Shown here: piece by piece, positions 5,072 to 46,268 of the stretch
Layout: the number at the start of each line of letters is the position of its first letter
Numbering within the stretch: the first letter of the stretch is position 1
Origin: Bacteroidales bacterium
GTDB lineage: Bacteria > Bacteroidota > Bacteroidia > Bacteroidales > UBA3824
Direction: 5' to 3'
DNA length: 64,000 nucleotides
Assembly (NCBI GenBank): GCA_016293845.1
Contig: JAEDDH010000001.1
Location: 29,211 to 93,210 of the forward strand
Notes under the pieces: model-generated
Database searches by the model: none
What the model was told of the DNA's origin: nothing
The model's input: the letters and a program-made list of their open reading frames with translations, nothing else
Position numbers and translations under genes: made by a program

Positions 5072-5386
5072 ATGGACAACATAGCATTCAACGGGTTAGT
5101 AACCTTTCTTTGCGGTACGCTTTCTACCGATGATTTGAAACGCTTAGGCGATTATCTCTTGCAAGTGGTTGAAATGCGTGACATTGATTCTGTGCCTTGC
5201 CCTTACACCAAAGAGGAGTTAAACGCAATGATTGATAGAGCCGAAGCCGAAATAGCGGCGGGGCTTGGAACTCCAAGCGAAGAAGTATTTCGCGAACTCT
5301 ATGAGGAAATTGAACGAGACGAAAAAAAAGCCGCTAACCAGAAGCGTAAGAAAATAAAAAAAGAACCTTTATGTGAGATGGTATGA
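5072..5386 (+). CDS. putative antitoxin partner of the downstream RelE/ParE toxin
   Basis: Small acidic/basic protein immediately upstream of a RelE/ParE-like ORF, with a 4-bp ATGA overlap. Confidence 0.35.
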   Translation: MDNIAFNGLVTFLCGTLSTDDLKRLGDYLLQVVEMRDIDSVPCPYTKEELNAMIDRAEAEIAAGLGTPSEEVFRELYEEIERDEKKAANQKRKKIKKEPLCEMV

Positions 5387-5694
5387 AGGTAATTTGGCAA
5401 GATGATGCAAAAAAATCTTTGAGACAAATTTCGAGATATATTGGTTCTAAATTCGGAAACACAGCCAAACTTGAATTTGTTAAAACGGTAGAGGAGTATA
5501 ATACAATGCTGAGTCAGATGCCTTATCTGTTTGCTATTGAACCCTTGTTTGATGACCGTCCCGAAACTTACCGTAGTGTGTTGATAGCCAACCGCAGCCG
5601 ATTGGTGTACCGTGTTGATGGCGACGTTGTCAATGTTGTTGCCTTTTGGGATTGCCTTAGAAATACTAAAAACAAGGCTAAAAAGATTAAATGA
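5383..5694 (+). CDS. type II toxin-antitoxin system RelE/ParE family toxin
   Basis: 103 aa with a RelE/ParE-like fold pattern (KVIWQDDAKKSL..., C-terminal YRV..DVVNVVAF..R); translationally coupled to the upstream ORF. Confidence 0.55.
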   Translation: MKVIWQDDAKKSLRQISRYIGSKFGNTAKLEFVKTVEEYNTMLSQMPYLFAIEPLFDDRPETYRSVLIANRSRLVYRVDGDVVNVVAFWDCLRNTKNKAKKIK

Positions 5695-5762
5695 TTAATT
5701 CATTTCGCATTCTGCATTATGAATTCTGCATTATGAATTATGAATTATGCATTAATTATGCA

Positions 5763-6272
5763 TTACTCAATCCCCAAATAATACACTATCACCGAATGTG
5801 GGGGAATTTTGTTTAAATCACCTACAAGACCTTTGGCGGCGTGAGGAGGAAGTATGAGCACTGCCTCGTCGCCGTGACGAAGAAATTTAAATGCCTTTAT
5901 CAATCCCACAATCATTTCGCTGCTGCCTGCCACAAGATTTTTCTTGCCGTCGGTTTGGCTGTCGTAGCATAAAGTGCCGTCGAGAAGTTCTATTCGGTAG
6001 GAGAGGATTACATTTGGATCTTGCTCTACGCTAAGGCCTTCGCCGTGCTTGGTAATCATATAGCGGATGCCTCCATCGGCAGTGTCCATTTGCCAATTGC
6101 GGCGTTTGATGTAGTTTTCTATTTGCTCCATATCCTGTTTAACGAGGTATTTGTTGGCTGTGATTAGATTCTCGTTAAACATACTGTACTCCTGAGGCTT
6201 TTTGCTATTGTCGGGAGTCTGCGAGCAAGCCGCCAAAAAAAGTGCTACTAATATATAAGGTGTGTGTTTCAT
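5763..6272 (-). CDS. FKBP-type peptidyl-prolyl cis-trans isomerase lipoprotein
   Basis: Lipoprotein signal peptide (LAACSQ) and a C-terminal FKBP domain. Confidence 0.7.
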   Translation of the reverse strand: MKHTPYILVALFLAACSQTPDNSKKPQEYSMFNENLITANKYLVKQDMEQIENYIKRRNWQMDTADGGIRYMITKHGEGLSVEQDPNVILSYRIELLDGTLCYDSQTDGKKNLVAGSSEMIVGLIKAFKFLRHGDEAVLILPPHAAKGLVGDLNKIPPHSVIVYYLGIE

Positions 6273-31220: not shown

Positions 31221-32782
31221 TATCCTTTTACTTCTTCGGTATCTTCAGGTTCTGAAGCGGTTTCGTTGGCAGATTCGGCAGCTTTTTCTGCCTTTTCTGC
31301 AATATCTTTGCCTTTGAGATAGTTGGGAAGTTCCAAACCTGCCGATTTGAAAATGTCGTTGATGGGAGGCAATGCGCCCAACATGCCCGACATAAAGTTG
31401 GCTGTGCTTGATTTGCCGTTTGAAAGGCTGTCCCAAACTGTAACCTTGTCGATTTTGATATTCTTTACAGCCTCTGTCTGGAGTTTTACAATCTCCACGA
31501 GTTTGTCGGCTATCATCATCTTTACAGCGTCGTCGGGGTTGTCGCCGGCGGCTTTTACCATTGCGTTGAAACCTTCGGCTTGTTTTGCGAGTACTTCCAT
31601 CATACCTTTTGCCTTTGCCTCCATCTCGTAGTAGATAGAGTCGGCGTTACCTTTTGCCACGCGGCGGATACGTTCTGCCTCTGCTTCTGCCTCAATTTCA
31701 ATGCGTTGACGTTCAATTTCAGCAGGGATAATGATGTCGGCAGTTTTGGTGGCTTTTTCACGGTCGGCACGTGCCATTTCGGCGAGTTTTTGTGCCTCGT
31801 ATGCCGATTTTTGAGTTTCTGCCTCGTTGATTCTTTCTGCCGAAACGGCAATCTTGTTGGCCTCTGCCTCTGCTTTGCGTCGTTCTGCCTCTGAATTTGC
31901 AACTCGGATTTTTGCCTCGTTCTCGCCCGAAACCGCTGTTGCGTTGGCTGCTGCTATGCTGATACGTTGGTTTTTCTGTGCTTCTGCCTCGCCCACTTGC
32001 GCCTCTGAATTGGCTGCTGCCACTTTTATACGCTGAGTTTTTTGCGATTCCGACACACCGATTTGTGCCTCGGCGGTTTGCGCTGCCACTTCGATGCTCT
32101 GCTCTTTGCGGAATTTTGCCTCACCGATAGCACCGTTTTTCTGTTCTTCGGCAACTTCGATTTTGGCTTTGTTGATAGCGCGTTCTGCCTCTTTGCGTCC
32201 GAGTGCGTCGATATAGCCGCTCTCGTCGGTGATGTCTTTTACGTTTACGTTGATGAGTTTCAAACCGAGTTTTTTGAGTTCTTGCTCCACGCTGTCGGAT
32301 ACGTTGCGGAGGAACATTTCGCGGTTTGAGTTGATTTCCTCGATGGTCATTGTGGCGATTACTACACGCAACTGACCAATGATAATATCCTCGGCGAGGA
32401 TACGGATGTCGTCTAATTTGATGCCGAGCAAACGTTCTGCAGCATTGTTCATTACTCCGTCTTCGGTGCTGATACCTACCATAAAGTTGCAGGGTACGTT
32501 AACACGAATCTGCTGCTTGCTGAGGGCTTTTTTAAGGTCAACCGAAATTGTCAACGGCGAAAGGTCGAGAAATTCGTAATCTTGGATTACGGGCCAAATA
32601 AATGCTGCGCCGCCGTGGATACATTTTGCTGTGCGGGTTCCTGCCGCACCTTTGCCCACTTTTCCGTAAACTACAAGTATGCGGTCGGAGGGGCATCGTT
32701 TGTAACGTTTTACAAACCAAACTATTAATATTAAACTGACTACAAACGCTATAAATATTAGCGTAAAAACTGCGTCTCCCAT
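31220..32782 (-). CDS. flotillin / SPFH (band 7) domain protein
   Basis: N-terminal TM, SPFH domain, long Ala/Glu-rich coiled coil and flotillin C-terminus; its stop overlaps the miaA start (TAATG). Confidence 0.8.
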   Translation of the reverse strand: MGDAVFTLIFIAFVVSLILIVWFVKRYKRCPSDRILVVYGKVGKGAAGTRTAKCIHGGAAFIWPVIQDYEFLDLSPLTISVDLKKALSKQQIRVNVPCNFMVGISTEDGVMNNAAERLLGIKLDDIRILAEDIIIGQLRVVIATMTIEEINSNREMFLRNVSDSVEQELKKLGLKLINVNVKDITDESGYIDALGRKEAERAINKAKIEVAEEQKNGAIGEAKFRKEQSIEVAAQTAEAQIGVSESQKTQRIKVAAANSEAQVGEAEAQKNQRISIAAANATAVSGENEAKIRVANSEAERRKAEAEANKIAVSAERINEAETQKSAYEAQKLAEMARADREKATKTADIIIPAEIERQRIEIEAEAEAERIRRVAKGNADSIYYEMEAKAKGMMEVLAKQAEGFNAMVKAAGDNPDDAVKMMIADKLVEIVKLQTEAVKNIKIDKVTVWDSLSNGKSSTANFMSGMLGALPPINDIFKSAGLELPNYLKGKDIAEKAEKAAESANETASEPEDTEEVKG

Positions 32783-40484: not shown

Positions 40485-42185
40485 ATGCCGACACTCAACT
40501 GGATAGGTAAAGAACAGATAATAAACCATCACAACGACGTGCCGTTCCGTGTGTTGGAACGCAAATACACGTTTGGGGAAATTAGAAATGAGAAAGTAGA
40601 AATTGGAAATGAGAAAGTAGAAATTAGAAATGAAGGCAATGCCGACAACCAAATTTCTAATTCCACATTTCAAATTTCTAATTCAAAAATAATCCACGGC
40701 GACAATCTTGAAGCCCTCAAAGCCCTTCTGCCCGAATACGAAGGTCGCATCAAATGTATCTACATCGACCCTCCGTACAACACTGGCAATTCTCCCGATA
40801 AAGGAGGATGGGTTTATTATGACAATGTGGACAGTCCTAAACTACGAAAATGGTTTGGTCAGGTTGTCGGTAAAGAATTAGACGACCTTTCTCGCCACGA
40901 CAAATGGCTTTGTATGATGTATCCGCGTTTAATGTTGCTTCAAAAATTACTTAGCGATGACGGTGCAATGTTCATTTCTATTGACGATAATGAGCAAGGT
41001 AATTTGCTCAACATCTGTCAATCTATTTTTGGTGTAAGTAATGTGGAGCAATACATTTGGTGTTTGCAAGATAAATCAGAAAGTTCTTTTGTAAAAACGG
41101 CAGGATTGACCGTTAGAAAAGAACACGAATATATAATTGCGTGCTTTAAAGGAAACGTAAAGTTTAAGAAATATGAGGGCAAAAGAGATTTTGCTGATAA
41201 TATCAAAGACAATCCCGACAATGATCCTCGTGGTCCTTGGTTTTCGGGTAATATTTCAAGGAATGGTATAAAAACAACAACGGGGTCAAAGTATTATACA
41301 ATAACCAATCCCGCAGGAGAAAGTTTTTCTCGAAACTGGACTTTGACGAAAGAAGAATATGAAGAGGCACTTAAAGACAACCGTATTTATTTTGCAAAAA
41401 ATGGTGCAGGTGTTCCTCGCCTGAAAATTTTTCCTCAATCCAATTCTGAGTTAATTCAAAGTAGTCTATTCACTGATGTTCATACTTCTATTACGGGAAA
41501 GAATGAATTGAAGGAAATATTTGGAGAGTCTCCGTTCCCATTTCCTAAACCGACAACGTTAATTGTGCGGCTTATGCAATTAATAACAGACCCCGACTCC
41601 ATCATCCTCGATTCCTTTGCCGGTTCGGGTACAACTGCCCACGCCGTTCTCAATCTTAACAAAGCGGATGGCGGCAACCGAAAATTTATCCTTGTGGAAA
41701 TGGAGGATTATGCCGAAAGTATTACCGCTGAGCGTGTTAAAAGGGTGATTGATGGTTACGGCGATACCGAAGGCACGGGCGGAAGTTTTGATTTTTACGA
41801 ACTTGGCGAACCCGTTTTTGATGCCGACGGCAATCTCAACGAAAACATTGGAACCGAAAAAATCCGTGAATATATTTGGTACAGTGAAATTAGAAATGAG
41901 AAATTAGGAATTAGAAATGTGGACGACTGCGACAGCCAAATTTCTAATTCCTCATTTCAAATCCCTAATTCCAAATATTTTCTTGGAAAATATTTGGGCA
42001 CGGCGTATTATTTTTATTACGAAAAAGACCAAATCACAACGCTCGACAAGGCGTTTCTCAACACCATCACGCAAAGGGCGGAGCAATACGTTATCTATGC
42101 CGACAATTGTTTGCTGTCGGCAGAGTTTATGCAGGCTAACCACATTATTTTCAAAAAGATACCACGCGACGTGAAAAAATTGTAA
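40485..42185 (+). CDS. mod: Type III restriction-modification system Mod subunit (beta-class N6-adenine DNA methyltransferase)
   Basis: N-terminal LNWIGKE; motif IV DPPYNT precedes motif I DSFAGSGTT (beta permutation); sits upstream of a res helicase-nuclease. Confidence 0.85.
   Translation: MPTLNWIGKEQIINHHNDVPFRVLERKYTFGEIRNEKVEIGNEKVEIRNEGNADNQISNSTFQISNSKIIHGDNLEALKALLPEYEGRIKCIYIDPPYNTGNSPDKGGWVYYDNVDSPKLRKWFGQVVGKELDDLSRHDKWLCMMYPRLMLLQKLLSDDGAMFISIDDNEQGNLLNICQSIFGVSNVEQYIWCLQDKSESSFVKTAGLTVRKEHEYIIACFKGNVKFKKYEGKRDFADNIKDNPDNDPRGPWFSGNISRNGIKTTTGSKYYTITNPAGESFSRNWTLTKEEYEEALKDNRIYFAKNGAGVPRLKIFPQSNSELIQSSLFTDVHTSITGKNELKEIFGESPFPFPKPTTLIVRLMQLITDPDSIILDSFAGSGTTAHAVLNLNKADGGNRKFILVEMEDYAESITAERVKRVIDGYGDTEGTGGSFDFYELGEPVFDADGNLNENIGTEKIREYIWYSEIRNEKLGIRNVDDCDSQISNSSFQIPNSKYFLGKYLGTAYYFYYEKDQITTLDKAFLNTITQRAEQYVIYADNCLLSAEFMQANHIIFKKIPRDVKKL
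40579..40691 (+). repeat. in-frame inverted-repeat element copy A inside mod (21-bp sub-units GAAATTAGAAATGAGAAAGTA x3, 16-bp spacer, inverted arm CAAATTTCTAATTCC x2)
   Basis: Direct reading: the left arm and the reverse complement of the right arm share the core AATTAGAAAT; translates as EIRNEKVEIGNEKVEIRNEGN...QISNSTFQISNSK. Confidence 0.6.
41886..41975 (+). repeat. in-frame inverted-repeat element copy B inside mod
   Basis: GAAATTAGAAATGAGAAATTAGGAATTAGAAAT, spacer, CAAATTTCTAATTCCTCATTTCAAATCCCTAATTCC; the spacer GGACGACTGCGACAGCC resembles the copy A spacer GGCAATGCCGACAACC. Confidence 0.6.
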
Positions 42186-42215
42186 ATTGTAAATTAGAAA
42201 TTGTAAATTTGCAAA
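42186..42215 (+). repeat. partial copy D of the same element immediately after the mod stop
   Basis: attgtaaattagaaattgtaaatttgcaaa contains the ATTAGAAAT core. Confidence 0.35.
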
Positions 42216-42246
42216 GTGAAAAACAATTAAAGTGGATAATTAAGAT

Positions 42247-42612
42247 ATGAAAGAAAACGAAACCAACAACGTGATTTTGGTGAAGAGCAAGGCTTTTGCA
42301 TTGCTTATAATCCGTATGTATAAATATTTGACTGACGAAAAGAAGGAGTTTGTTTTGTCAAAACAAGTTCTTCGAAGTGGAACAAGTATTGGAGCAAACG
42401 TAAAAGAGACTGTATATGCACAGAGCAAAGCCGATTTCTATGCAAAATTATACATTGCTACAAAGGAGGCAGGCGAAACAGAATACTGGCTTGAATTGTT
42501 GCACGAAAGCGGTTATCTTGATGATAATGTTTTTGATAAACTAAATGTGCAGTGTACAGAACTAATCAAGTTGTTAGTTTCCATTACTAAAACTCAAAAA
42601 GAACAGAAATAA
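42247..42612 (+). CDS. four-helix-bundle protein (23S rRNA intervening-sequence protein family, TIGR02436-like)
   Basis: 121 aa; pattern ...KSKAFALLIIRMYK...SKQVLRSGTSIGANVKE...YIATKEAGETEYWLELL... typical of this Bacteroidetes-abundant family. Confidence 0.65.
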   Translation: MKENETNNVILVKSKAFALLIIRMYKYLTDEKKEFVLSKQVLRSGTSIGANVKETVYAQSKADFYAKLYIATKEAGETEYWLELLHESGYLDDNVFDKLNVQCTELIKLLVSITKTQKEQK

Positions 42613-42624
42613 ACGATGTCAAAT

Positions 42625-42686
42625 CAATTAGAAATGAGAAGTAGAAGGTTGAAAATTTCTAATTTCTAATTCCAAATTTCAAATTA
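42625..42686 (+). repeat. non-coding copy C of the inverted-repeat element, abutting the res start
   Basis: CAATTAGAAATGAGAAGTAGAAG, 4-nt spacer, AAAATTTCTAATTTCTAATTCCAAATTTCAAATT. Confidence 0.55.
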
Positions 42687-42691
42687 AAAAA

Positions 42692-45334
42692 GTGGAACTG
42701 AAACCCTATCAACAACAGATATTAGACGATTTGCAGCGTTTTATGCAATATGTGCAGGAGACCAAAAACATTCAGGATGCGTTCCATAAGTTTTGGTTTG
42801 AGCATCCGCGCACTGGTCTTACTCCGTTTCCGGACGAGGCGGTGGAGCCGTACAAAGACAACGTGAAAAACGCTCCTCACGTGTGTATCAAAGTGCCTAC
42901 GGGCGGCGGCAAAACTTTTATTGCGTCGGCGGCGTTGGGTACGATTTTCAATAATTTTGACGACAACCATTTTAAAACAGTGGTTTGGCTTGTGCCGTCG
43001 ATTACCATTTTGGAACAGACGTTGAAAAACCTTCGCAACAAAAATCATCCTTACAGAAACCGCATCGACGTAGATTTTCAAAACCGTGTTGAAGTGCTCG
43101 ACAAATCGCAAGCCTTGCAGGGCGCGGGATTTTCGTTGCAGGTTGTAAAAGCAAACCTTTGTATCATAGTGATGAGTTTCGACAGCCTCCGCGCCCGCAA
43201 AAAGGAAGACCGCAAGGTTTATCAAGAAAACGGCAATTTGCTTTCGTTCCAGTCAATTGTTGGCACTGACGAAAACGGCGACCCCGATTTGCAGTTGATG
43301 CGCGTTTTGCAGGCGTTGAATCCCGTTGTAATTGTTGACGAAAGCCACAACGCCGAAACCGAACTCAGCGTAGAGATGTTGCAAAACTTGAATCCGAGTT
43401 TTATCCTCGACCTCACAGCCACGCCGCGCAAAAATAGCAACATCATTAGTTTTACCGACGCCTACGAACTCAAAAAGGAGTGTATGGTAAAATTGCCGGT
43501 TATTGTTCATAATCATCAGACCAAAAACGATGTAATAAATTCGGCGTTGGAATTGCAGAGCAATTTGGAGCGCGACGCCAAAAAATCGCAAAAAGAAGGC
43601 GGCAAATATATCCGCCCGATTGTGTTGTTTCAGGCGCAGCCACGCACCGGCGAGGAGAATATCACCTACGAAAAAATCAAACAGACGCTCCTCGACCTCA
43701 AAATCCCCGAAGAGCAAATCCGCATCAAAACCGCCGACCGCAACGAAATCAAAGACGAAGATTTGCTGTCGCCATCTTGCCCTGTGCGTTATATCATCAC
43801 TGTCAACGCCTTGAAAGAGGGTTGGGATTGTCCGTTTGCCTACATACTTGCCTCGCTTGCCGACCGCTCGTCGTCGGTGGATGTAGAACAGATTCTTGGG
43901 CGCGTGCTGCGTATGCCGTGGGTTAGCAAAAACCAAAATCCAATGCTCAATATGAGTTATGTGCTCACATCGTCGGCAAAATTTTTGGATACGCTCGACA
44001 ATATCGTCAAGGGTTTGAATCGTGCGGGTTTCAGCGAAAATGATTACAAAATTGCCGAACCCGAAAAACCGAAAGCCCCTGTGGTTGCAGAATCCGCCAT
44101 CCAAAATGTTGGAATGAAAGATATGTTTGAAACAAAGGTCGATTCTACGACAGAGGTTGCTGACGATGGCAATGGGGACGAACTTGATGCCGCCAAAATT
44201 GAGTTTGATCCGCAAGAGGAATCAACCCCAAAAAGCGATGTCGCACAGATAGTGCAGCAAGCGCAAGCCGAGGCTGAAAAAGAAGTTGAAATTGCAACCA
44301 AGCATAAAATCAACAACATACCAAACGAATTGTCAAAGCAAGTGAAGTGTTATAAGATGAAAGAAGTGTTTCGCGATTCGGCACAATCGTTGAAACTTCC
44401 GCAGTTTATGAGTGCCGACAAGTCGCAGGAACTCACCACGGATTTGTTTGTGGAGGTGTATGAAAAGGCTATGTTTGAGGGCGAAATGCTTTTGAAGGAT
44501 TTTAAACTCGGCAACGAGAAATCCGACATTGATTTTGATGCTGTGGAATCCACAATGTACCGTGTAGATTTGGACGAAACTTCGCATAGTCATACTCCAA
44601 CATACCTAAAAGTGGACGGCATTGCGCACGAAACAATTGCCGCTTACATTCTTGATCCCTCGAAGAAAAATATCAGGGTCAAGAATTGCACATTCCGCCT
44701 TAAAAACATTATTGGCAAAATGTATCCGATTCCCGACAAGGAGATTGAACTCTACATCAAACACGTTTTGGAACGTTTTTCCGACGAGCAATTTGCCGAC
44801 TTGATAACCCACGAATATACCTACGCCGAAAAAATCAAGGCTAAAATTCGTCAGTTGGCTACCGACTACAAAGAAAGGCAGTTTTTTAATTTGGTTGACA
44901 AAGATTTGATTTTCACGGAGGGGGCGTTCCCATTGCCCGACGAGATTATTCCCAGCAAGACTATTTCTGGCTTGCCAAAATCGCTCTACGAAAAAGAGGG
45001 CGACATAGACGGTTTTGAGCGCGAGGTAATCAACGACGTTGCCAACCTATCGAATGTGGAATGGTGGACGCGCAATCTTGAACGCGGCAAAGGTTTCTGT
45101 ATCAATGGTTTCATCAATCATTATCCCGATTTTATAATCAAGACCAAGAAGGGCAAAATAGTCCTTCTCGAAACCAAGGGCGACCATCTCGACGCTGAAA
45201 AAAAGATAAAACTCGGCAACCTTTGGGCAAGCAAAGCGGGCAACAATTACCGTTATTGCTTAGTTTACAAAAACCGCGAAGTCGATGGTGCATACACCAA
45301 ACAAGGATTTTTGGAGGTGTTGAAGGAGTTATAA
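42692..45334 (+). CDS. res: Type III restriction enzyme Res subunit (SF2 helicase plus nuclease)
   Basis: Walker A VPTGGGKT and DExH box VIVDESHNA, with a C-terminal endonuclease region; apparent GTG start at 42692. Confidence 0.85.
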   Translation: MELKPYQQQILDDLQRFMQYVQETKNIQDAFHKFWFEHPRTGLTPFPDEAVEPYKDNVKNAPHVCIKVPTGGGKTFIASAALGTIFNNFDDNHFKTVVWLVPSITILEQTLKNLRNKNHPYRNRIDVDFQNRVEVLDKSQALQGAGFSLQVVKANLCIIVMSFDSLRARKKEDRKVYQENGNLLSFQSIVGTDENGDPDLQLMRVLQALNPVVIVDESHNAETELSVEMLQNLNPSFILDLTATPRKNSNIISFTDAYELKKECMVKLPVIVHNHQTKNDVINSALELQSNLERDAKKSQKEGGKYIRPIVLFQAQPRTGEENITYEKIKQTLLDLKIPEEQIRIKTADRNEIKDEDLLSPSCPVRYIITVNALKEGWDCPFAYILASLADRSSSVDVEQILGRVLRMPWVSKNQNPMLNMSYVLTSSAKFLDTLDNIVKGLNRAGFSENDYKIAEPEKPKAPVVAESAIQNVGMKDMFETKVDSTTEVADDGNGDELDAAKIEFDPQEESTPKSDVAQIVQQAQAEAEKEVEIATKHKINNIPNELSKQVKCYKMKEVFRDSAQSLKLPQFMSADKSQELTTDLFVEVYEKAMFEGEMLLKDFKLGNEKSDIDFDAVESTMYRVDLDETSHSHTPTYLKVDGIAHETIAAYILDPSKKNIRVKNCTFRLKNIIGKMYPIPDKEIELYIKHVLERFSDEQFADLITHEYTYAEKIKAKIRQLATDYKERQFFNLVDKDLIFTEGAFPLPDEIIPSKTISGLPKSLYEKEGDIDGFEREVINDVANLSNVEWWTRNLERGKGFCINGFINHYPDFIIKTKKGKIVLLETKGDHLDAEKKIKLGNLWASKAGNNYRYCLVYKNREVDGAYTKQGFLEVLKEL

Positions 45335-45440: not shown

Positions 45441-46268
45441 ATGAAAAAAGTATTTTTACCATTAACAGCGTTATTATTAGCCTTTTACAGTTGCAATAAT
45501 GCGCCCCAGCAAAATTCGGACAATGCTTCCGACACAAGCAAAATCTCCATTCCCGAACCCAAGGACGACGCTCCCGCTGCCGATGCTTCGGTTGATTGGG
45601 ACAAACCGCTTTTCACCATCGACACCGAAACTGGCGATACCATTACCAAATGGCTCTACACTGACACCTCGATTGTTGAAACATCTATTTACACCGAGGC
45701 TTCGTATGGCTATGAGGGTGAAGAAACCACTGTTTACGATTTAAAAGGTCGCATAATTTCGCAATGCGGTACTATTAATTCGGGCAACATTCACAACGAT
45801 GAAATGCGTTATACCTACGATGGCAAAATCCGCACAGGCAAGGGCAGCAACGTTACTGAGGGTTATCCATCGTTTACAGAGGTTAAGGAGGTAACATATT
45901 TTGCCGACAGCGAATTTAAGCAAGATACTTTGGGACAGAACTATTCTGCCGAAGTTTCGTGGGATGATATGGACGAATCGTCGGAAACTCCGCTCGAACT
46001 TGAAAGTTACTATGTTAACAAGTTTGCGAATGGCAAATTGGTTCAAACAACCTATTACGGCAAGGATTCCGAAACAGGCAAGATGACATTCCGCTCGCGT
46101 ACAGTTTACGATTACAACACATCGGGCAATCTTGTAAAATCCACCCTCTTAAACGAGCAGGGCACACCTTTGGGCGAATATGCCGAAACCCGATACACTT
46201 ACAAAGGCAACGCCCGCACCTCATCAAACGACGGCTCCGAGTCGGTAACGTATTATGCTAAGAAATAA
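45441..46268 (+). CDS. hypothetical lipoprotein
   Basis: Lipobox FYSCNN; Thr/Tyr-rich beta-rich mature region. Confidence 0.45.
   Translation: MKKVFLPLTALLLAFYSCNNAPQQNSDNASDTSKISIPEPKDDAPAADASVDWDKPLFTIDTETGDTITKWLYTDTSIVETSIYTEASYGYEGEETTVYDLKGRIISQCGTINSGNIHNDEMRYTYDGKIRTGKGSNVTEGYPSFTEVKEVTYFADSEFKQDTLGQNYSAEVSWDDMDESSETPLELESYYVNKFANGKLVQTTYYGKDSETGKMTFRSRTVYDYNTSGNLVKSTLLNEQGTPLGEYAETRYTYKGNARTSSNDGSESVTYYAKK

What the first reader, a model, noticed from the sequence alone, without database searches (positions are those of the whole stretch)
42186..42700. Four-helix-bundle gene inserted between mod and res, flanked by repeat-element copies and an apparent duplication of the res start region
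A 121-aa four-helix-bundle ORF occupies the mod-res intergenic space. This family is abundant in Bacteroidota and is often a selfish insertion. Upstream of it reads CAATTAAAGTGGATAATTAAG, and upstream of res reads CAAATTAAAAAAGTGGAACTG. The second string contains the GTG GAA CTG start of res. The shared CAAATTAAA..AGTGGA string looks like a duplicated target or junction. Each duplicate is preceded by a copy of the ATTAGAAAT inverted-repeat element (D and C). This points to a cassette insertion that separated mod from res and may have forced res onto a GTG start without its native upstream context. The gene may be carried by the repeat element or may have hitch-hiked with it.
Basis: partly seen in the sequence, partly recalled or inferred. 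Interest (0 to 1): 0.55.

Follow-up and report, generated by a model that had tools for sequence, protein, structure and literature searches.

The report
rRNA-intervening-sequence-type cassette inside a restriction operon
A small, highly conserved four-helix-bundle gene bracketed by inverted runs of 7-base repeats has been inserted between the two genes of a Type III restriction system. The same gene-plus-repeat architecture is known from 23S rRNA intervening sequences, and here it turns out to sit inside ordinary operons of many bacterial phyla and in viral contigs.

Summary
The ORF, its position and the flanking repeats are real. The 121-aa protein is a PF05635/TIGR02436 '23S rRNA intervening-sequence' protein lying between a Type III mod and res.

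A metagenomic relative (L086) has a 97% identical Res and 93-100% identical flanks. There mod and res abut (TAG-TT-ATG), so window 42185-42692 is a 508-nt insert, and res starts with GTG instead of ATG.

About 50 of 70 Mod relatives have the abutting junction.

The 'ATTAGAAAT element' is a run of heptamer units. An upstream array and an inverted downstream array bracket the gene. Three ~90-nt ORF-less hairpin copies exist, two of them in frame inside mod.

The pattern is general:
- Period-7 arrays number 160, against 0-3 for other periods, in 795 kb around 4HB homologues.
- In 29 of 29 loci the downstream unit is the reverse complement of the upstream one, across 23 different units.
- 63 of 72 genes are co-oriented with both neighbours.
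- 10 of 17 viral-contig copies show the arrays.

The Coxiella 23S IVS has the same ORF, stem and heptamers and is cut by RNase III.

Best reading: an IVS-type cassette living in an mRNA operon. RNA processing is inferred, not shown, and is predicted to be weak in this particular copy.

The parts
40485..42185 (+). mod, Type III DNA methyltransferase (566 aa). It carries two in-frame hairpin inserts.
   Evidence: PF01555 1e-32. PADLOC MTase_III 1.8e-174 over the full length. Catalytic motifs are conserved in the alignment with relatives.
40578..40684 (+). Hairpin copy A, in frame in mod (reads EIRNEKVEIGNEKVEIRNE-GNADN-QISNSTFQISNS). Left heptamer arm 40578-40634, loop 40635-40649, right arm 40650-40684.
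   Evidence: Sequence and translation. Fold z -2.7. Absent from Mod of L088, L089, L002 and L121. Homologous to copies B and C. The loop resembles the native linker of empty relatives.
41886..41972 (+). Hairpin copy B, in frame in mod (reads EIRNEKLGIRNVDDCDSQISNSSFQIPNS). Arms 41886-41919 and 41937-41972.
   Evidence: Arms of 38 nt, 82% complementary (I1). Fold -32.3 kcal/mol, z -5.1. Also present in L086 and L087. Most Mod orthologues have a short unstructured linker at this site.
42185..42692 (+). The whole inserted cassette, defined against the empty site of L086. These 508 nt replace GTTA.
   Evidence: Comparison of filled and empty sites.
42177..42211 (+). Upstream heptamer array D: (AAATTGT)2 AAATTAG AAATTGT AAATTTG. 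Its first unit is the native 3' end of mod, including the stop codon.
   Evidence: L087 has exactly one more AAATTGT unit. It is complementary to 42649-42685 (37 nt, 78%, I2).
42247..42612 (+). Four-helix-bundle gene (121 aa), 23S rRNA intervening-sequence protein family.
   Evidence: PF05635 1.3e-27. TIGR02436 1.9e-31. PDB 2RLD 1.7e-35. 85% amino-acid identity to L002 and L005 although 4-fold sites are saturated.
42626..42685 (+). Hairpin copy C. Short left arm 42626-42646. Right arm 42652-42685 is also the inverted partner of array D.
   Evidence: (I18, I2). Local fold -11.8 kcal/mol. The loop is 13 nt longer in L087.
42692..45334 (+). res, Type III restriction helicase-endonuclease (880 aa). 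It starts with GTG, 6 nt after the right arm.
   Evidence: PF04851 1.4e-19. REase_III 9.5e-80. The start codon is ATG at the empty sites L086 and L088 and in 66 of 75 relatives.

Best explanation
The segment 42185-42692 is an intervening-sequence (IVS)-type cassette. It consists of a PF05635 four-helix-bundle gene bracketed by inverted arrays of heptanucleotide repeats. This is the same kind of element that interrupts 23S rRNA in Coxiella and Leptospira, but here it is lodged in the mod-res junction of a Type III restriction-modification operon.

Shown:
- It is an insertion into a junction that is ancestrally abutting and probably translationally coupled.
- It is oriented with the operon, and no terminator-like site lies between mod and res on that strand.
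- Its arms are heptamer arrays that change by whole units between close relatives.
- ORF-less copies of the hairpin sit in frame in two permissive loops of Mod.
- The protein is under strong purifying selection.

Inferred:
- The cassette is transcribed as part of the mod-res mRNA.
- Its complementary arms form double-stranded RNA that RNase III can cut, as shown for the Coxiella IVS. This would release or destabilise the 4HB message and physically uncouple res from mod.
- Together with the ATG-to-GTG change, this should lower Res relative to Mod, which a restriction system tolerates well.

The cassette encodes no recognisable recombinase. It probably spreads passively with its host operon and by homologous exchange between alleles or between arrays. 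How the 7-nt arrays are made, and what the Avd-like protein does, remain unknown.
For: Insertion:
- Empty site in L086, with 97% identical Res and 93-100% identical flanks. Further empty sites in L088 and 48 other relatives.
- Near-identical filled site in L087.

Architecture shared with relatives:
- L002 and L005 have inverted heptamer arms directly after the mod stop and before the res start.
- Their minimum-energy folds close the arms around the ORF. In L005 the centroid structure does so too.

Generality:
- 160 period-7 arrays against 0-3 for periods 5, 6 and 8-12.
- 106 of the 160 lie within 200 nt of a 4HB gene, a zone that makes up about 8% of the sequence.
- In 29 of 29 loci the arms are reverse complements, across 23 distinct units. 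Permuted pairings give a mean of 4 and a maximum of 11.
- Both neighbours are co-oriented in 63 of 72 cases against 59% for control genes, p 1e-7.
- The pattern is replicated in viral contigs, 10 of 17.
- Other guest genes at the same mod-res junction (RhuM, Fic, MazF, Bro-N, YhcG, AAA_21) have no arrays.

Independent 4HB colonisations of Type III junctions: L021, L072/L079, L094 and L097.

Precedent: the Coxiella 23S IVS has an S23p ORF, a 28-bp terminal stem, tandem GACAGAT heptamers of variable number, and is excised by RNase III in vitro (PMC4990558).

The heptamer count in array D differs by one unit between the window and L087.
Against: - In this window the closing stem is not predicted. 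Only about 0.3 base pairs are expected between array D and the right arm. The duplex (-17.6 kcal/mol) is matched by two local hairpins (-6.2 and -12.0), and the arms are AU-rich.
- No transcript or cleavage data exist for this element.
- Sense-strand duplexes are not significantly more stable than antisense ones (45 against 33 loci, p 0.12). Selection at the RNA level rather than the DNA level is therefore not demonstrated.
- Arm complementarity could be maintained by templated quasi-palindrome correction without any RNA function.
- The protein's strong conservation (85% identity at saturated synonymous sites), together with its recurrence in restriction operons here and in CRISPR-cas operons in the literature, could mean it serves its host system rather than being a passenger.
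- None of the 10 loci checked with Rfam lies in rRNA.
Confidence: 0.6

Rival explanations
1. The heptamer arrays are DNA-level palindromic elements, comparable to REP, MITE or quasi-palindromes. They arise by polymerase slippage in 7-nt register and are kept complementary by template switching. The 4HB gene is cargo or a frequent neighbour, and no RNA processing is involved.
For: - There is no strand asymmetry in duplex stability.
- Copies A, B and C behave like a copied ~90-nt element, including the loop.
- Array length changes by whole units.
- The loop of copy A looks like native linker sequence flanked by added arms.
- The literature notes a general over-representation of heptameric repeats, and inverted heptamer pairs in Xanthomonas, without reference to any gene (PMC4692102).
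Against: - It does not explain why the arrays are concentrated roughly 20-fold next to one protein family across phyla.
- It does not explain why the gene is almost always co-oriented with its flanking operon.
- The homologous rRNA IVS is demonstrably processed as RNA.
Confidence: 0.2
2. The four-helix-bundle protein is a working accessory of the restriction system or of defence loci in general. It might be a regulator of Res or a nucleic-acid-binding cofactor like Avd of diversity-generating retroelements. Under this reading it is retained because it benefits the system.
For: - It has been retained with mod and res through saturating divergence in the window, L002 and L005, under strong purifying selection.
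- Type III junctions are the most frequent single context among 77 loci.
- 18 family members have been reported inside cas loci (PMC3936711).
- The family contains Avd (PMC10053308).
Against: - It is absent from about 65 of 70 relatives of this Mod family, including one with 97% identical Res.
- It has no match in PADLOC.
- The same subfamily sits in housekeeping operons such as SmpB, YchF, serC-serA-like genes and tRNA synthetases.
- No reverse transcriptase is among the called neighbours.
Confidence: 0.12
3. The heptamer arrays inside mod act as a phase-variation switch. Gain or loss of one 7-nt unit would shift the frame of mod and switch the methyltransferase off, as in the phase-variable Type III mod genes (phasevarions) of other bacteria.
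For: - The unit length is not a multiple of three.
- Array D differs by one unit between the window and L087.
- Copy A differs by 21 nt between the window and L087/L086.
- That Type III mod genes are classic phase-variable loci is established knowledge, not tested here.
Against: - The units are imperfect, and the only perfect tandem inside mod has a 21-nt period, which keeps the frame.
- All four mod alleles seen with the inserts are in frame.
- The arrays occur as hairpins, which slippage-based switching does not require.
Confidence: 0.05
4. This is the first reader's model: a transposon-like cassette whose insertion duplicated the target, so that CAAATTAAA..AGTGGA marks the junction on both sides.
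For: The two strings exist.
Against: - The alignment is no better than 12.5% of shuffles.
- The upstream string lies inside the cassette and is absent from L002 and L005.
- The empty site shows that GTTA was replaced, not duplicated.
Confidence: 0.03

Closest known systems
S23p-type intervening sequence (IVS) of 23S rRNA (Coxiella burnetii, Leptospira; Warrier et al. 2016, PMC4990558)
   Same: The ORF belongs to the same protein family. Terminal inverted repeats enclose the ORF. Tandem heptameric repeats lie next to the ORF, and their number varies between strains. The element has to be transcribed as part of a host transcript.
   Different: The host is a protein-coding operon (the mod-res junction), not helix 25 or 45 of 23S rRNA. 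The arms are much more AU-rich, and in this copy they are interrupted by a local hairpin. The ORF is under strong purifying selection, whereas the Coxiella ORF is reported to be decaying. RNase III cutting has not been tested here.
Heptanucleotide repeats over-represented in bacteria (GGGAATC in Xanthomonas and GGGGAYT in Nostoc, Rehm et al. 2015, PMC4692102; TAACTGA in Beggiatoaceae, cyanobacteria and Bacteroidetes, MacGregor 2015, PMC4679880)
   Same: The repeats are tandem 7-nt units found mostly between co-oriented genes. They are often in convergent pairs able to form stem-loops, and their length varies between close relatives.
   Different: Those papers do not connect the repeats with any gene. 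Term searches found no mention of S23 in either paper, and none of 'intervening' or 'four helix' in the paper where each term was searched. Here the arrays bracket one specific protein family.
Guest genes nested in restriction-modification operons (RhuM, Fic, toxin-antitoxin and ATPase genes between subunit genes)
   Same: The mod-res junction of this family is occupied by unrelated extra genes in about 20 of 70 relatives. The guest is dispensable for the system.
   Different: Only the four-helix-bundle guests bring inverted heptamer arrays.
Rickettsia palindromic elements (RPE) and REP elements inserted in frame in genes (comparison from established knowledge, not tested here)
   Same: Short palindromic elements are inserted in frame into tolerant loops of a functional protein (copies A and B). 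The second insertion site also holds GTAG...CTAC palindromes in other lineages.
   Different: The arms are built of 7-nt tandem units. No GTAG motif and no target duplication were seen. All copies are confined to one operon in this window.
Avd, accessory protein of diversity-generating retroelements
   Same: It belongs to the same four-helix-bundle superfamily (PMC10053308).
   Different: The called neighbours include no reverse transcriptase. No template or variable repeat pair was looked for.

Membership tests
PF05635 / TIGR02436 four-helix-bundle (23S rRNA IVS protein) family | Profile match above the curated threshold | tested here: met
   PF05635 96.5 bits against a cut-off of 33.8. TIGR02436 108.5 bits against a cut-off of 24.
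PF05635 / TIGR02436 four-helix-bundle (23S rRNA IVS protein) family | Conserved motif GxxRxxxSxxxNxxE (Zhang and Ye 2013) | tested here: inconclusive
   R43, S47, N51 and E54 are present and invariant or nearly so in the subfamily. The leading G is Q40 in this subfamily.
PF05635 / TIGR02436 four-helix-bundle (23S rRNA IVS protein) family | Four-helix-bundle fold, pentameric ring | not tested
   There is only a sequence match to the solved chain 2RLD (1.7e-35). No model was built.
S23p-type IVS element | PF05635 ORF enclosed by terminal inverted repeats that can form a stem | tested here: inconclusive
   The arms are present (37 nt, 78% complementary), and the stem is in the MFE of relatives L002 and L005. 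It is not in the predicted ensemble of the window copy.
S23p-type IVS element | Tandem heptameric repeats adjacent to the ORF, number variable between strains | tested here: met
   (one-unit difference from L087). Precedent in Coxiella.
S23p-type IVS element | Located inside a 23S (or 16S) rRNA gene helix | tested here: not met
   It lies between two protein-coding genes. There is no Rfam rRNA match in the region or in the 10 related loci checked.
S23p-type IVS element | Excision from the host transcript by RNase III | not testable with these tools
   This needs transcript end mapping or an in vitro cleavage assay.
Type III restriction-modification system | Mod of the Type III methyltransferase family and Res with the helicase/endonuclease architecture, on the same strand with mod first | tested here: met
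   MTase_III 1.8e-174 and REase_III 9.5e-80. PF01555 and PF04851.
Type III restriction-modification system | mod and res abutting or overlapping (the state of most relatives) | tested here: not met
   The gap is 506 nt here. It is -11 to +15 nt in 50 relatives.
Transposon or MITE with terminal inverted repeats and target-site duplication | Direct duplication of the target at both ends | tested here: not met
The filled versus empty site shows GTTA replaced by 508 nt with no duplication. No duplication is evident at sites A and B.
Transposon or MITE with terminal inverted repeats and target-site duplication | Several homologous copies of a discrete short element | tested here: met
   Copies A, B and C align over the arms, and A and B also over the loop, in the window, L086, L087 and L096.
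Diversity-generating retroelement (Avd context) | Adjacent reverse transcriptase and template/variable repeat pair | tested here: not met
   The called neighbours in the near-identical locus L001 carry no RT domain. The window neighbours scanned are TamB, an M15 peptidase, Mod and Res.

The most novel reading that the evidence does not exclude
PF05635 genes together with their inverted heptamer arrays form a widespread, so far undescribed class of 'operon intervening sequences'. These elements colonise transcribed units of any kind (rRNA, housekeeping operons, restriction and CRISPR-cas operons, phage genomes). They account for a good part of the unexplained excess of heptanucleotide repeats in bacterial genomes. 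Their arms are made and kept in 7-nt register by a dedicated mechanism that involves the Avd-like protein, possibly with a reverse transcriptase or polymerase supplied in trans.
Probability: 0.3. Interest if true: 0.85.

Novelty: new variant of a known kind. Interest (0 to 1): 0.68.

Why it matters
The S23p-type intervening sequences have been known in 23S rRNA since the 1990s, without a function for the protein or an origin for the element. The excess of 7-nt repeats in bacterial genomes is likewise unexplained.

This locus offers several things:
- a clean filled/empty pair;
- evidence that gene and repeat arms travel together;
- evidence that the same architecture is common inside ordinary operons across phyla and in viral contigs.

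This links three separate literatures: rRNA IVS, heptamer repeats, and 'IVS proteins' reported as CRISPR- or defence-associated. It also suggests simple experiments, namely RNase III mapping, cassette deletion and protein-repeat binding.

There is a caution for annotation. Occurrences of this family inside defence operons may reflect insertion preference rather than function.

For restriction-modification biology, the locus shows how a guest element can break translational coupling of mod and res and change the res start codon.

Tried and rejected
2. Recent horizontal transfer of the cassette between restriction lineages was tested. 4-fold-site identity of the 4HB gene (0.38-0.40) equals that of mod and res (0.36-0.47) for L002 and L005, so all are saturated. 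There is no sign of recent transfer, only strong purifying selection.
3. A test for RNA-level against DNA-level selection compared sense and antisense duplex energies and was not significant.
4. An Rfam search of the region found only sub-threshold miRNA-like hairpin hits. No rRNA was found near 4HB genes in 10 loci with long non-coding flanks.
5. A closing stem in the window itself is not in the MFE, the centroid or the ensemble.
6. A second 4HB gene or remnant in the window was sought. Only weak chance-level hits were found, the best with E 0.004 over 36 aa at 32216-32323.
7. The sigma-70 promoter scan is uninformative for an organism that is probably a member of the Bacteroidota. No + strand terminator-like site lies between mod and res.
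8. PADLOC has no model that matches the 4HB protein.
9. My first shuffle z-scores for the flank duplexes were a poor statistic for low-complexity arrays. I replaced them with the periodicity and unit-matching tests.
Full report
WHAT IS THERE

The region reads, all on the + strand:
- mod, 40485-42185: PF01555, PADLOC MTase_III 1.8e-174.
- A 121-aa ORF, 42247-42612.
- res, 42692-45334: PF04851, REase_III, GTG start.

The small ORF is a clear member of PF05635 (1.3e-27) and TIGR02436 'four helix bundle protein' (1.9e-31). It matches the solved chain 2RLD at 1.7e-35. It has more than 8000 homologues in the protein collection. The string ATTAGAAAT occurs 12 times in 64 kb against 1.5 expected, and 11 of the 12 lie within 40581-42670.

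ANATOMY OF THE REPEATS

The repeat is not a fixed inverted 9-mer. It is a run of imperfect 7-nt units (GAAATTA, GAAATGA, AAATTGT and so on), present in both orientations.

- Array D (42177-42211) starts within the last codons of mod.
- Its inverted partner is the right arm 42652-42685, which ends 6 nt before the res start (37 nt, 78% complementary).
- Three copies of a ~90-nt hairpin built of the same units exist. Copy C (42626-42685) lies just downstream of the 4HB gene. Copies A (40578-40684) and B (41886-41972) lie inside mod.
- A and B are both in frame and both read EIRNEK...QISNS.FQI.NS.
- A, B and C align with each other. In relatives A and B share even the loop, so they are copies of one element.

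Mod keeps all its conserved motifs and aligns end to end with the Type III model.

THE CASSETTE IS AN INSERTION

I scanned metagenomes with the Mod family and obtained 80 loci.

- In 50 of about 70 loci that also show res, mod and res lie within -11 to +15 nt of each other and no 4HB gene is present.
- L086 is an empty site of the same allele family. Res is 97% identical, with 91% identity at 4-fold sites. The flanks are 93-100% identical for 540 nt upstream and 1800 nt downstream.
- The L086 junction reads AAAAAATTGTA-GTTA-TGGAACTG, that is mod stop TAG, two bases, then res ATG.
- In the window the four bases GTTA are replaced by 508 nt (42185-42692), and the res start reads GTG.
- L087 is a filled site whose 4HB gene is 98% identical. 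It differs from the window by exactly one extra AAATTGT unit in array D and by 13 nt in the loop of hairpin C.
- No target duplication is visible.

It is missing from the other cassette-bearing relatives.

A rough Fisher test that I worked out by hand from these counts, not in a tool call, gives about 6e-4. The lineages are not fully independent.

AGE AND SELECTION

L002 and L005 have Mod 62% and 49% identical to the window's. They sit in different genomic neighbourhoods and carry the same mod-4HB-res layout with the same family of arms.

- 4-fold sites of the 4HB gene are saturated between these loci and the window (0.38-0.40 identical), like those of mod and res.
- The protein is nevertheless 85% identical.

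So the arrangement is old in part of this clade, the protein is under strong purifying selection, and I cannot show recent cassette transfer. Presence or absence in nearly identical alleles (the window and L087 against L086) is most simply explained by homologous exchange between alleles. I could not decide between gain and loss.

THE ARCHITECTURE IS GENERAL

I fetched 80 genome loci with homologues 51-70% identical, from Bacteroidales, Clostridia, Treponema, Fibrobacter, Planctomycetota, Myxococcota and others.

- In 795 kb there are 160 tandem arrays of period 7, against 0-3 for periods 5, 6 and 8-12.
- 106 of them lie within 200 nt of a 4HB gene, a zone that makes up about 8% of the sequence.
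- At a strict threshold, 54 of 83 genes have at least one array and 30 have one on each side.
- In 29 of 29 non-redundant loci with two arrays, the downstream unit is the reverse complement of the upstream unit (at most one mismatch), although 23 different units are used. Permuting partners gives a mean of 4 matches and a maximum of 11.
- The gene is co-oriented with both neighbours in 63 of 72 cases, against 59% for control genes of the same loci (p 1e-7), usually with short gaps.
- The neighbours are mostly housekeeping genes. The commonest single context is again a Type III mod upstream (5 of 76) and res downstream (6 of 77).
- The 4HB proteins of L021, L072/L079, L094 and L097 do not cluster with the window clade. 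Type III junctions were therefore colonised at least three or four times.
- An independent sample from viral contigs shows flanking inverted heptamer arrays in 10 of 17 cases.
- As an internal control, about 20 relatives carry other guests at the same mod-res junction (RhuM, Fic, PemK/MazF, Bro-N, YhcG/DUF1016, AAA_21). None of them has heptamer arrays.

LINK TO KNOWN ELEMENTS

The Coxiella burnetii IVS in helix 45 of 23S rRNA has four matching features (PMC4990558):
- It carries an ORF of this family (S23p).
- It has a 28-bp stem of terminal inverted repeats.
- It has two or three tandem GACAGAT heptamers just upstream of the ORF, whose number varies between strains.
- It is excised by RNase III in vitro.

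The window element has the ORF, the inverted arms, the heptamers and the unit-number variation. It differs in its host, which is an mRNA operon.

Separately, heptameric repeats have been reported as over-represented in bacteria. Convergent pairs occur between co-oriented genes in Xanthomonas (PMC4692102), and TAACTGA arrays occur in Beggiatoaceae, cyanobacteria and some Bacteroidetes (PMC4679880). Term searches of those two papers turned up no mention of this protein family. Members of the family have also been listed as cas-locus associated, for example between cmr3 and cmr2 (PMC3936711). In the searchable library I found no paper that links PF05635 genes in general with inverted heptamer arrays. 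The library covers open-access papers only.

HOW IT PROBABLY WORKS

Shown: the points above.

Inferred: the cassette depends on read-through transcription of its host operon, which would explain the orientation bias. No terminator-like site lies between mod and res on the + strand. The arms would form double-stranded RNA that RNase III can cut, as in the rRNA IVS.

- In L002 and L005 the minimum-energy fold closes the arms around the ORF. In L005 the centroid does so too.
- In the window itself this stem is not predicted. Hairpin C and a local fold of array D compete with it, and only about 0.3 base pairs between D and the right arm are expected in the ensemble.
- For this copy, processing, if any, would more likely occur at hairpin C. 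The clearest consequence of the insertion is therefore the loss of the abutting mod-res junction and the weaker GTG start. Both should lower Res relative to Mod.

A test for sense-strand-specific stability was not significant. A purely DNA-level explanation (slippage in 7-nt register plus templated correction of quasi-palindromes) remains a serious rival. Why the register is seven, and what the protein does, are open.

HAIRPINS INSIDE MOD

- Copy A is absent from the Mod of L088, L089, L002 and L121. There the linker reads FG-NDASDN-KIIHG.
- In the window the loop of copy A (GGCAATGCCGACAAC, GNADN) looks like that native linker with two codon deletions. The arms seem to have been added on both sides of pre-existing sequence.
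- In L086 and L087 the loop of copy A resembles that of copy B, which suggests conversion between the copies.
- Site B is a short unstructured linker in most orthologues (median fold z -0.5). It carries other palindromes (GTAG...CTAC type) in L005, L088-L090 and L129, and a heptamer hairpin in L094.
- Both sites therefore behave as permissive loops that collect palindromic elements, as Rickettsia palindromic elements do in Rickettsia genes. That comparison rests on established knowledge.

VERDICT

The element is best filed as a new variant of a known kind: an S23p-type intervening sequence in a protein-coding operon. It fails the rRNA-location criterion of the classical family. RNase III processing is untested.

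The wider pattern is that one protein family is bracketed by inverted heptamer arrays and co-oriented inside operons across phyla. It appears not to have been described, and it is what makes the finding interesting.

Noticed in passing
window 5707-5765: A solo one-sided heptamer array (GCATTAT/GAATTAT units, the reverse complement of the AATTCAT/AATGCAT family that most often flanks 4HB genes in Bacteroidales). It lies just downstream of a ParE-toxin ORF (5383-5694, PF05016 1.8e-08) and before a convergent gene. No 4HB gene or partner arm is nearby.
   Followed up: partly
L005 2043-2129; L088 5036-5161; L089 3530-3637; L090 2128-2232; L129 2193-2276: At the position of hairpin copy B, other Mod orthologues carry in-frame GC-rich palindromes of the form GTAG...CTAC, for example GTAGAGACGCGATTAATCGCGTCTCTAC. 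These resemble REP-type elements. This loop of Mod seems to be a hotspot for palindromic insertions of several families.
   Followed up: partly
L093-L162 (about 20 loci), between mod and res: The mod-res junction of this Type III family often holds other guest genes: RhuM (L094, L111 and others), Fic (L110, L161, L097), PemK/MazF (L115), Bro-N (L119, L130), YhcG/DUF1016 nuclease (L108) and AAA_21 ATPase pairs (L106, L124). None has heptamer arrays.
   Followed up: partly
window 40635-40649: The loop of hairpin copy A (GGCAATGCCGACAAC, GNADN) resembles the native linker of relatives that lack the hairpin (GGCAACGATGCCAGCGACAAC, GNDASDN). It looks as if the two arms were added on either side of existing sequence rather than inserted as one block.
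   Followed up: partly
window 41971-41997: A perfect 12-nt inverted repeat (CCAAATATTTTC / GAAAATATTTGG) lies immediately after hairpin copy B and overlaps the conserved YFLGK motif of Mod. It is also present in L086 and L087.
   Followed up: no
window 42204-42211: Array D contains TAAATTTG, which fits the Bacteroidetes -7 promoter consensus TAnnTTTG (from my own knowledge). An ATTG lies 21 nt upstream. The motif is conserved in L087 but not in L002 or L005, so an internal promoter for the 4HB gene and res is possible but unsupported.
   Followed up: no
window 45441-46268: A 275-aa ORF directly downstream of res has no Pfam, NCBIfam or PADLOC match. It is conserved in the near-identical locus L001.
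   Followed up: no
L067 2146-2612: A 4HB gene lies 43 nt upstream of a tRNA gene on the same strand. This suggests that these cassettes also sit in tRNA transcription units.
   Followed up: no
L007, L024, L058, L061, L064, L081 and L177 (coordinates): Many loci contain further paired inverted heptamer arrays away from the 4HB gene, that is ORF-less hairpins or arrays around short unidentified segments. The units are often the same as those flanking the local 4HB gene.
   Followed up: no
window, L086 and L087, central part of mod: The central target-recognition part of Mod is unrelated between the window, L086 and L087, while both ends of the gene and res are 93-100% identical. This indicates allele shuffling of the recognition domain.
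   Followed up: no
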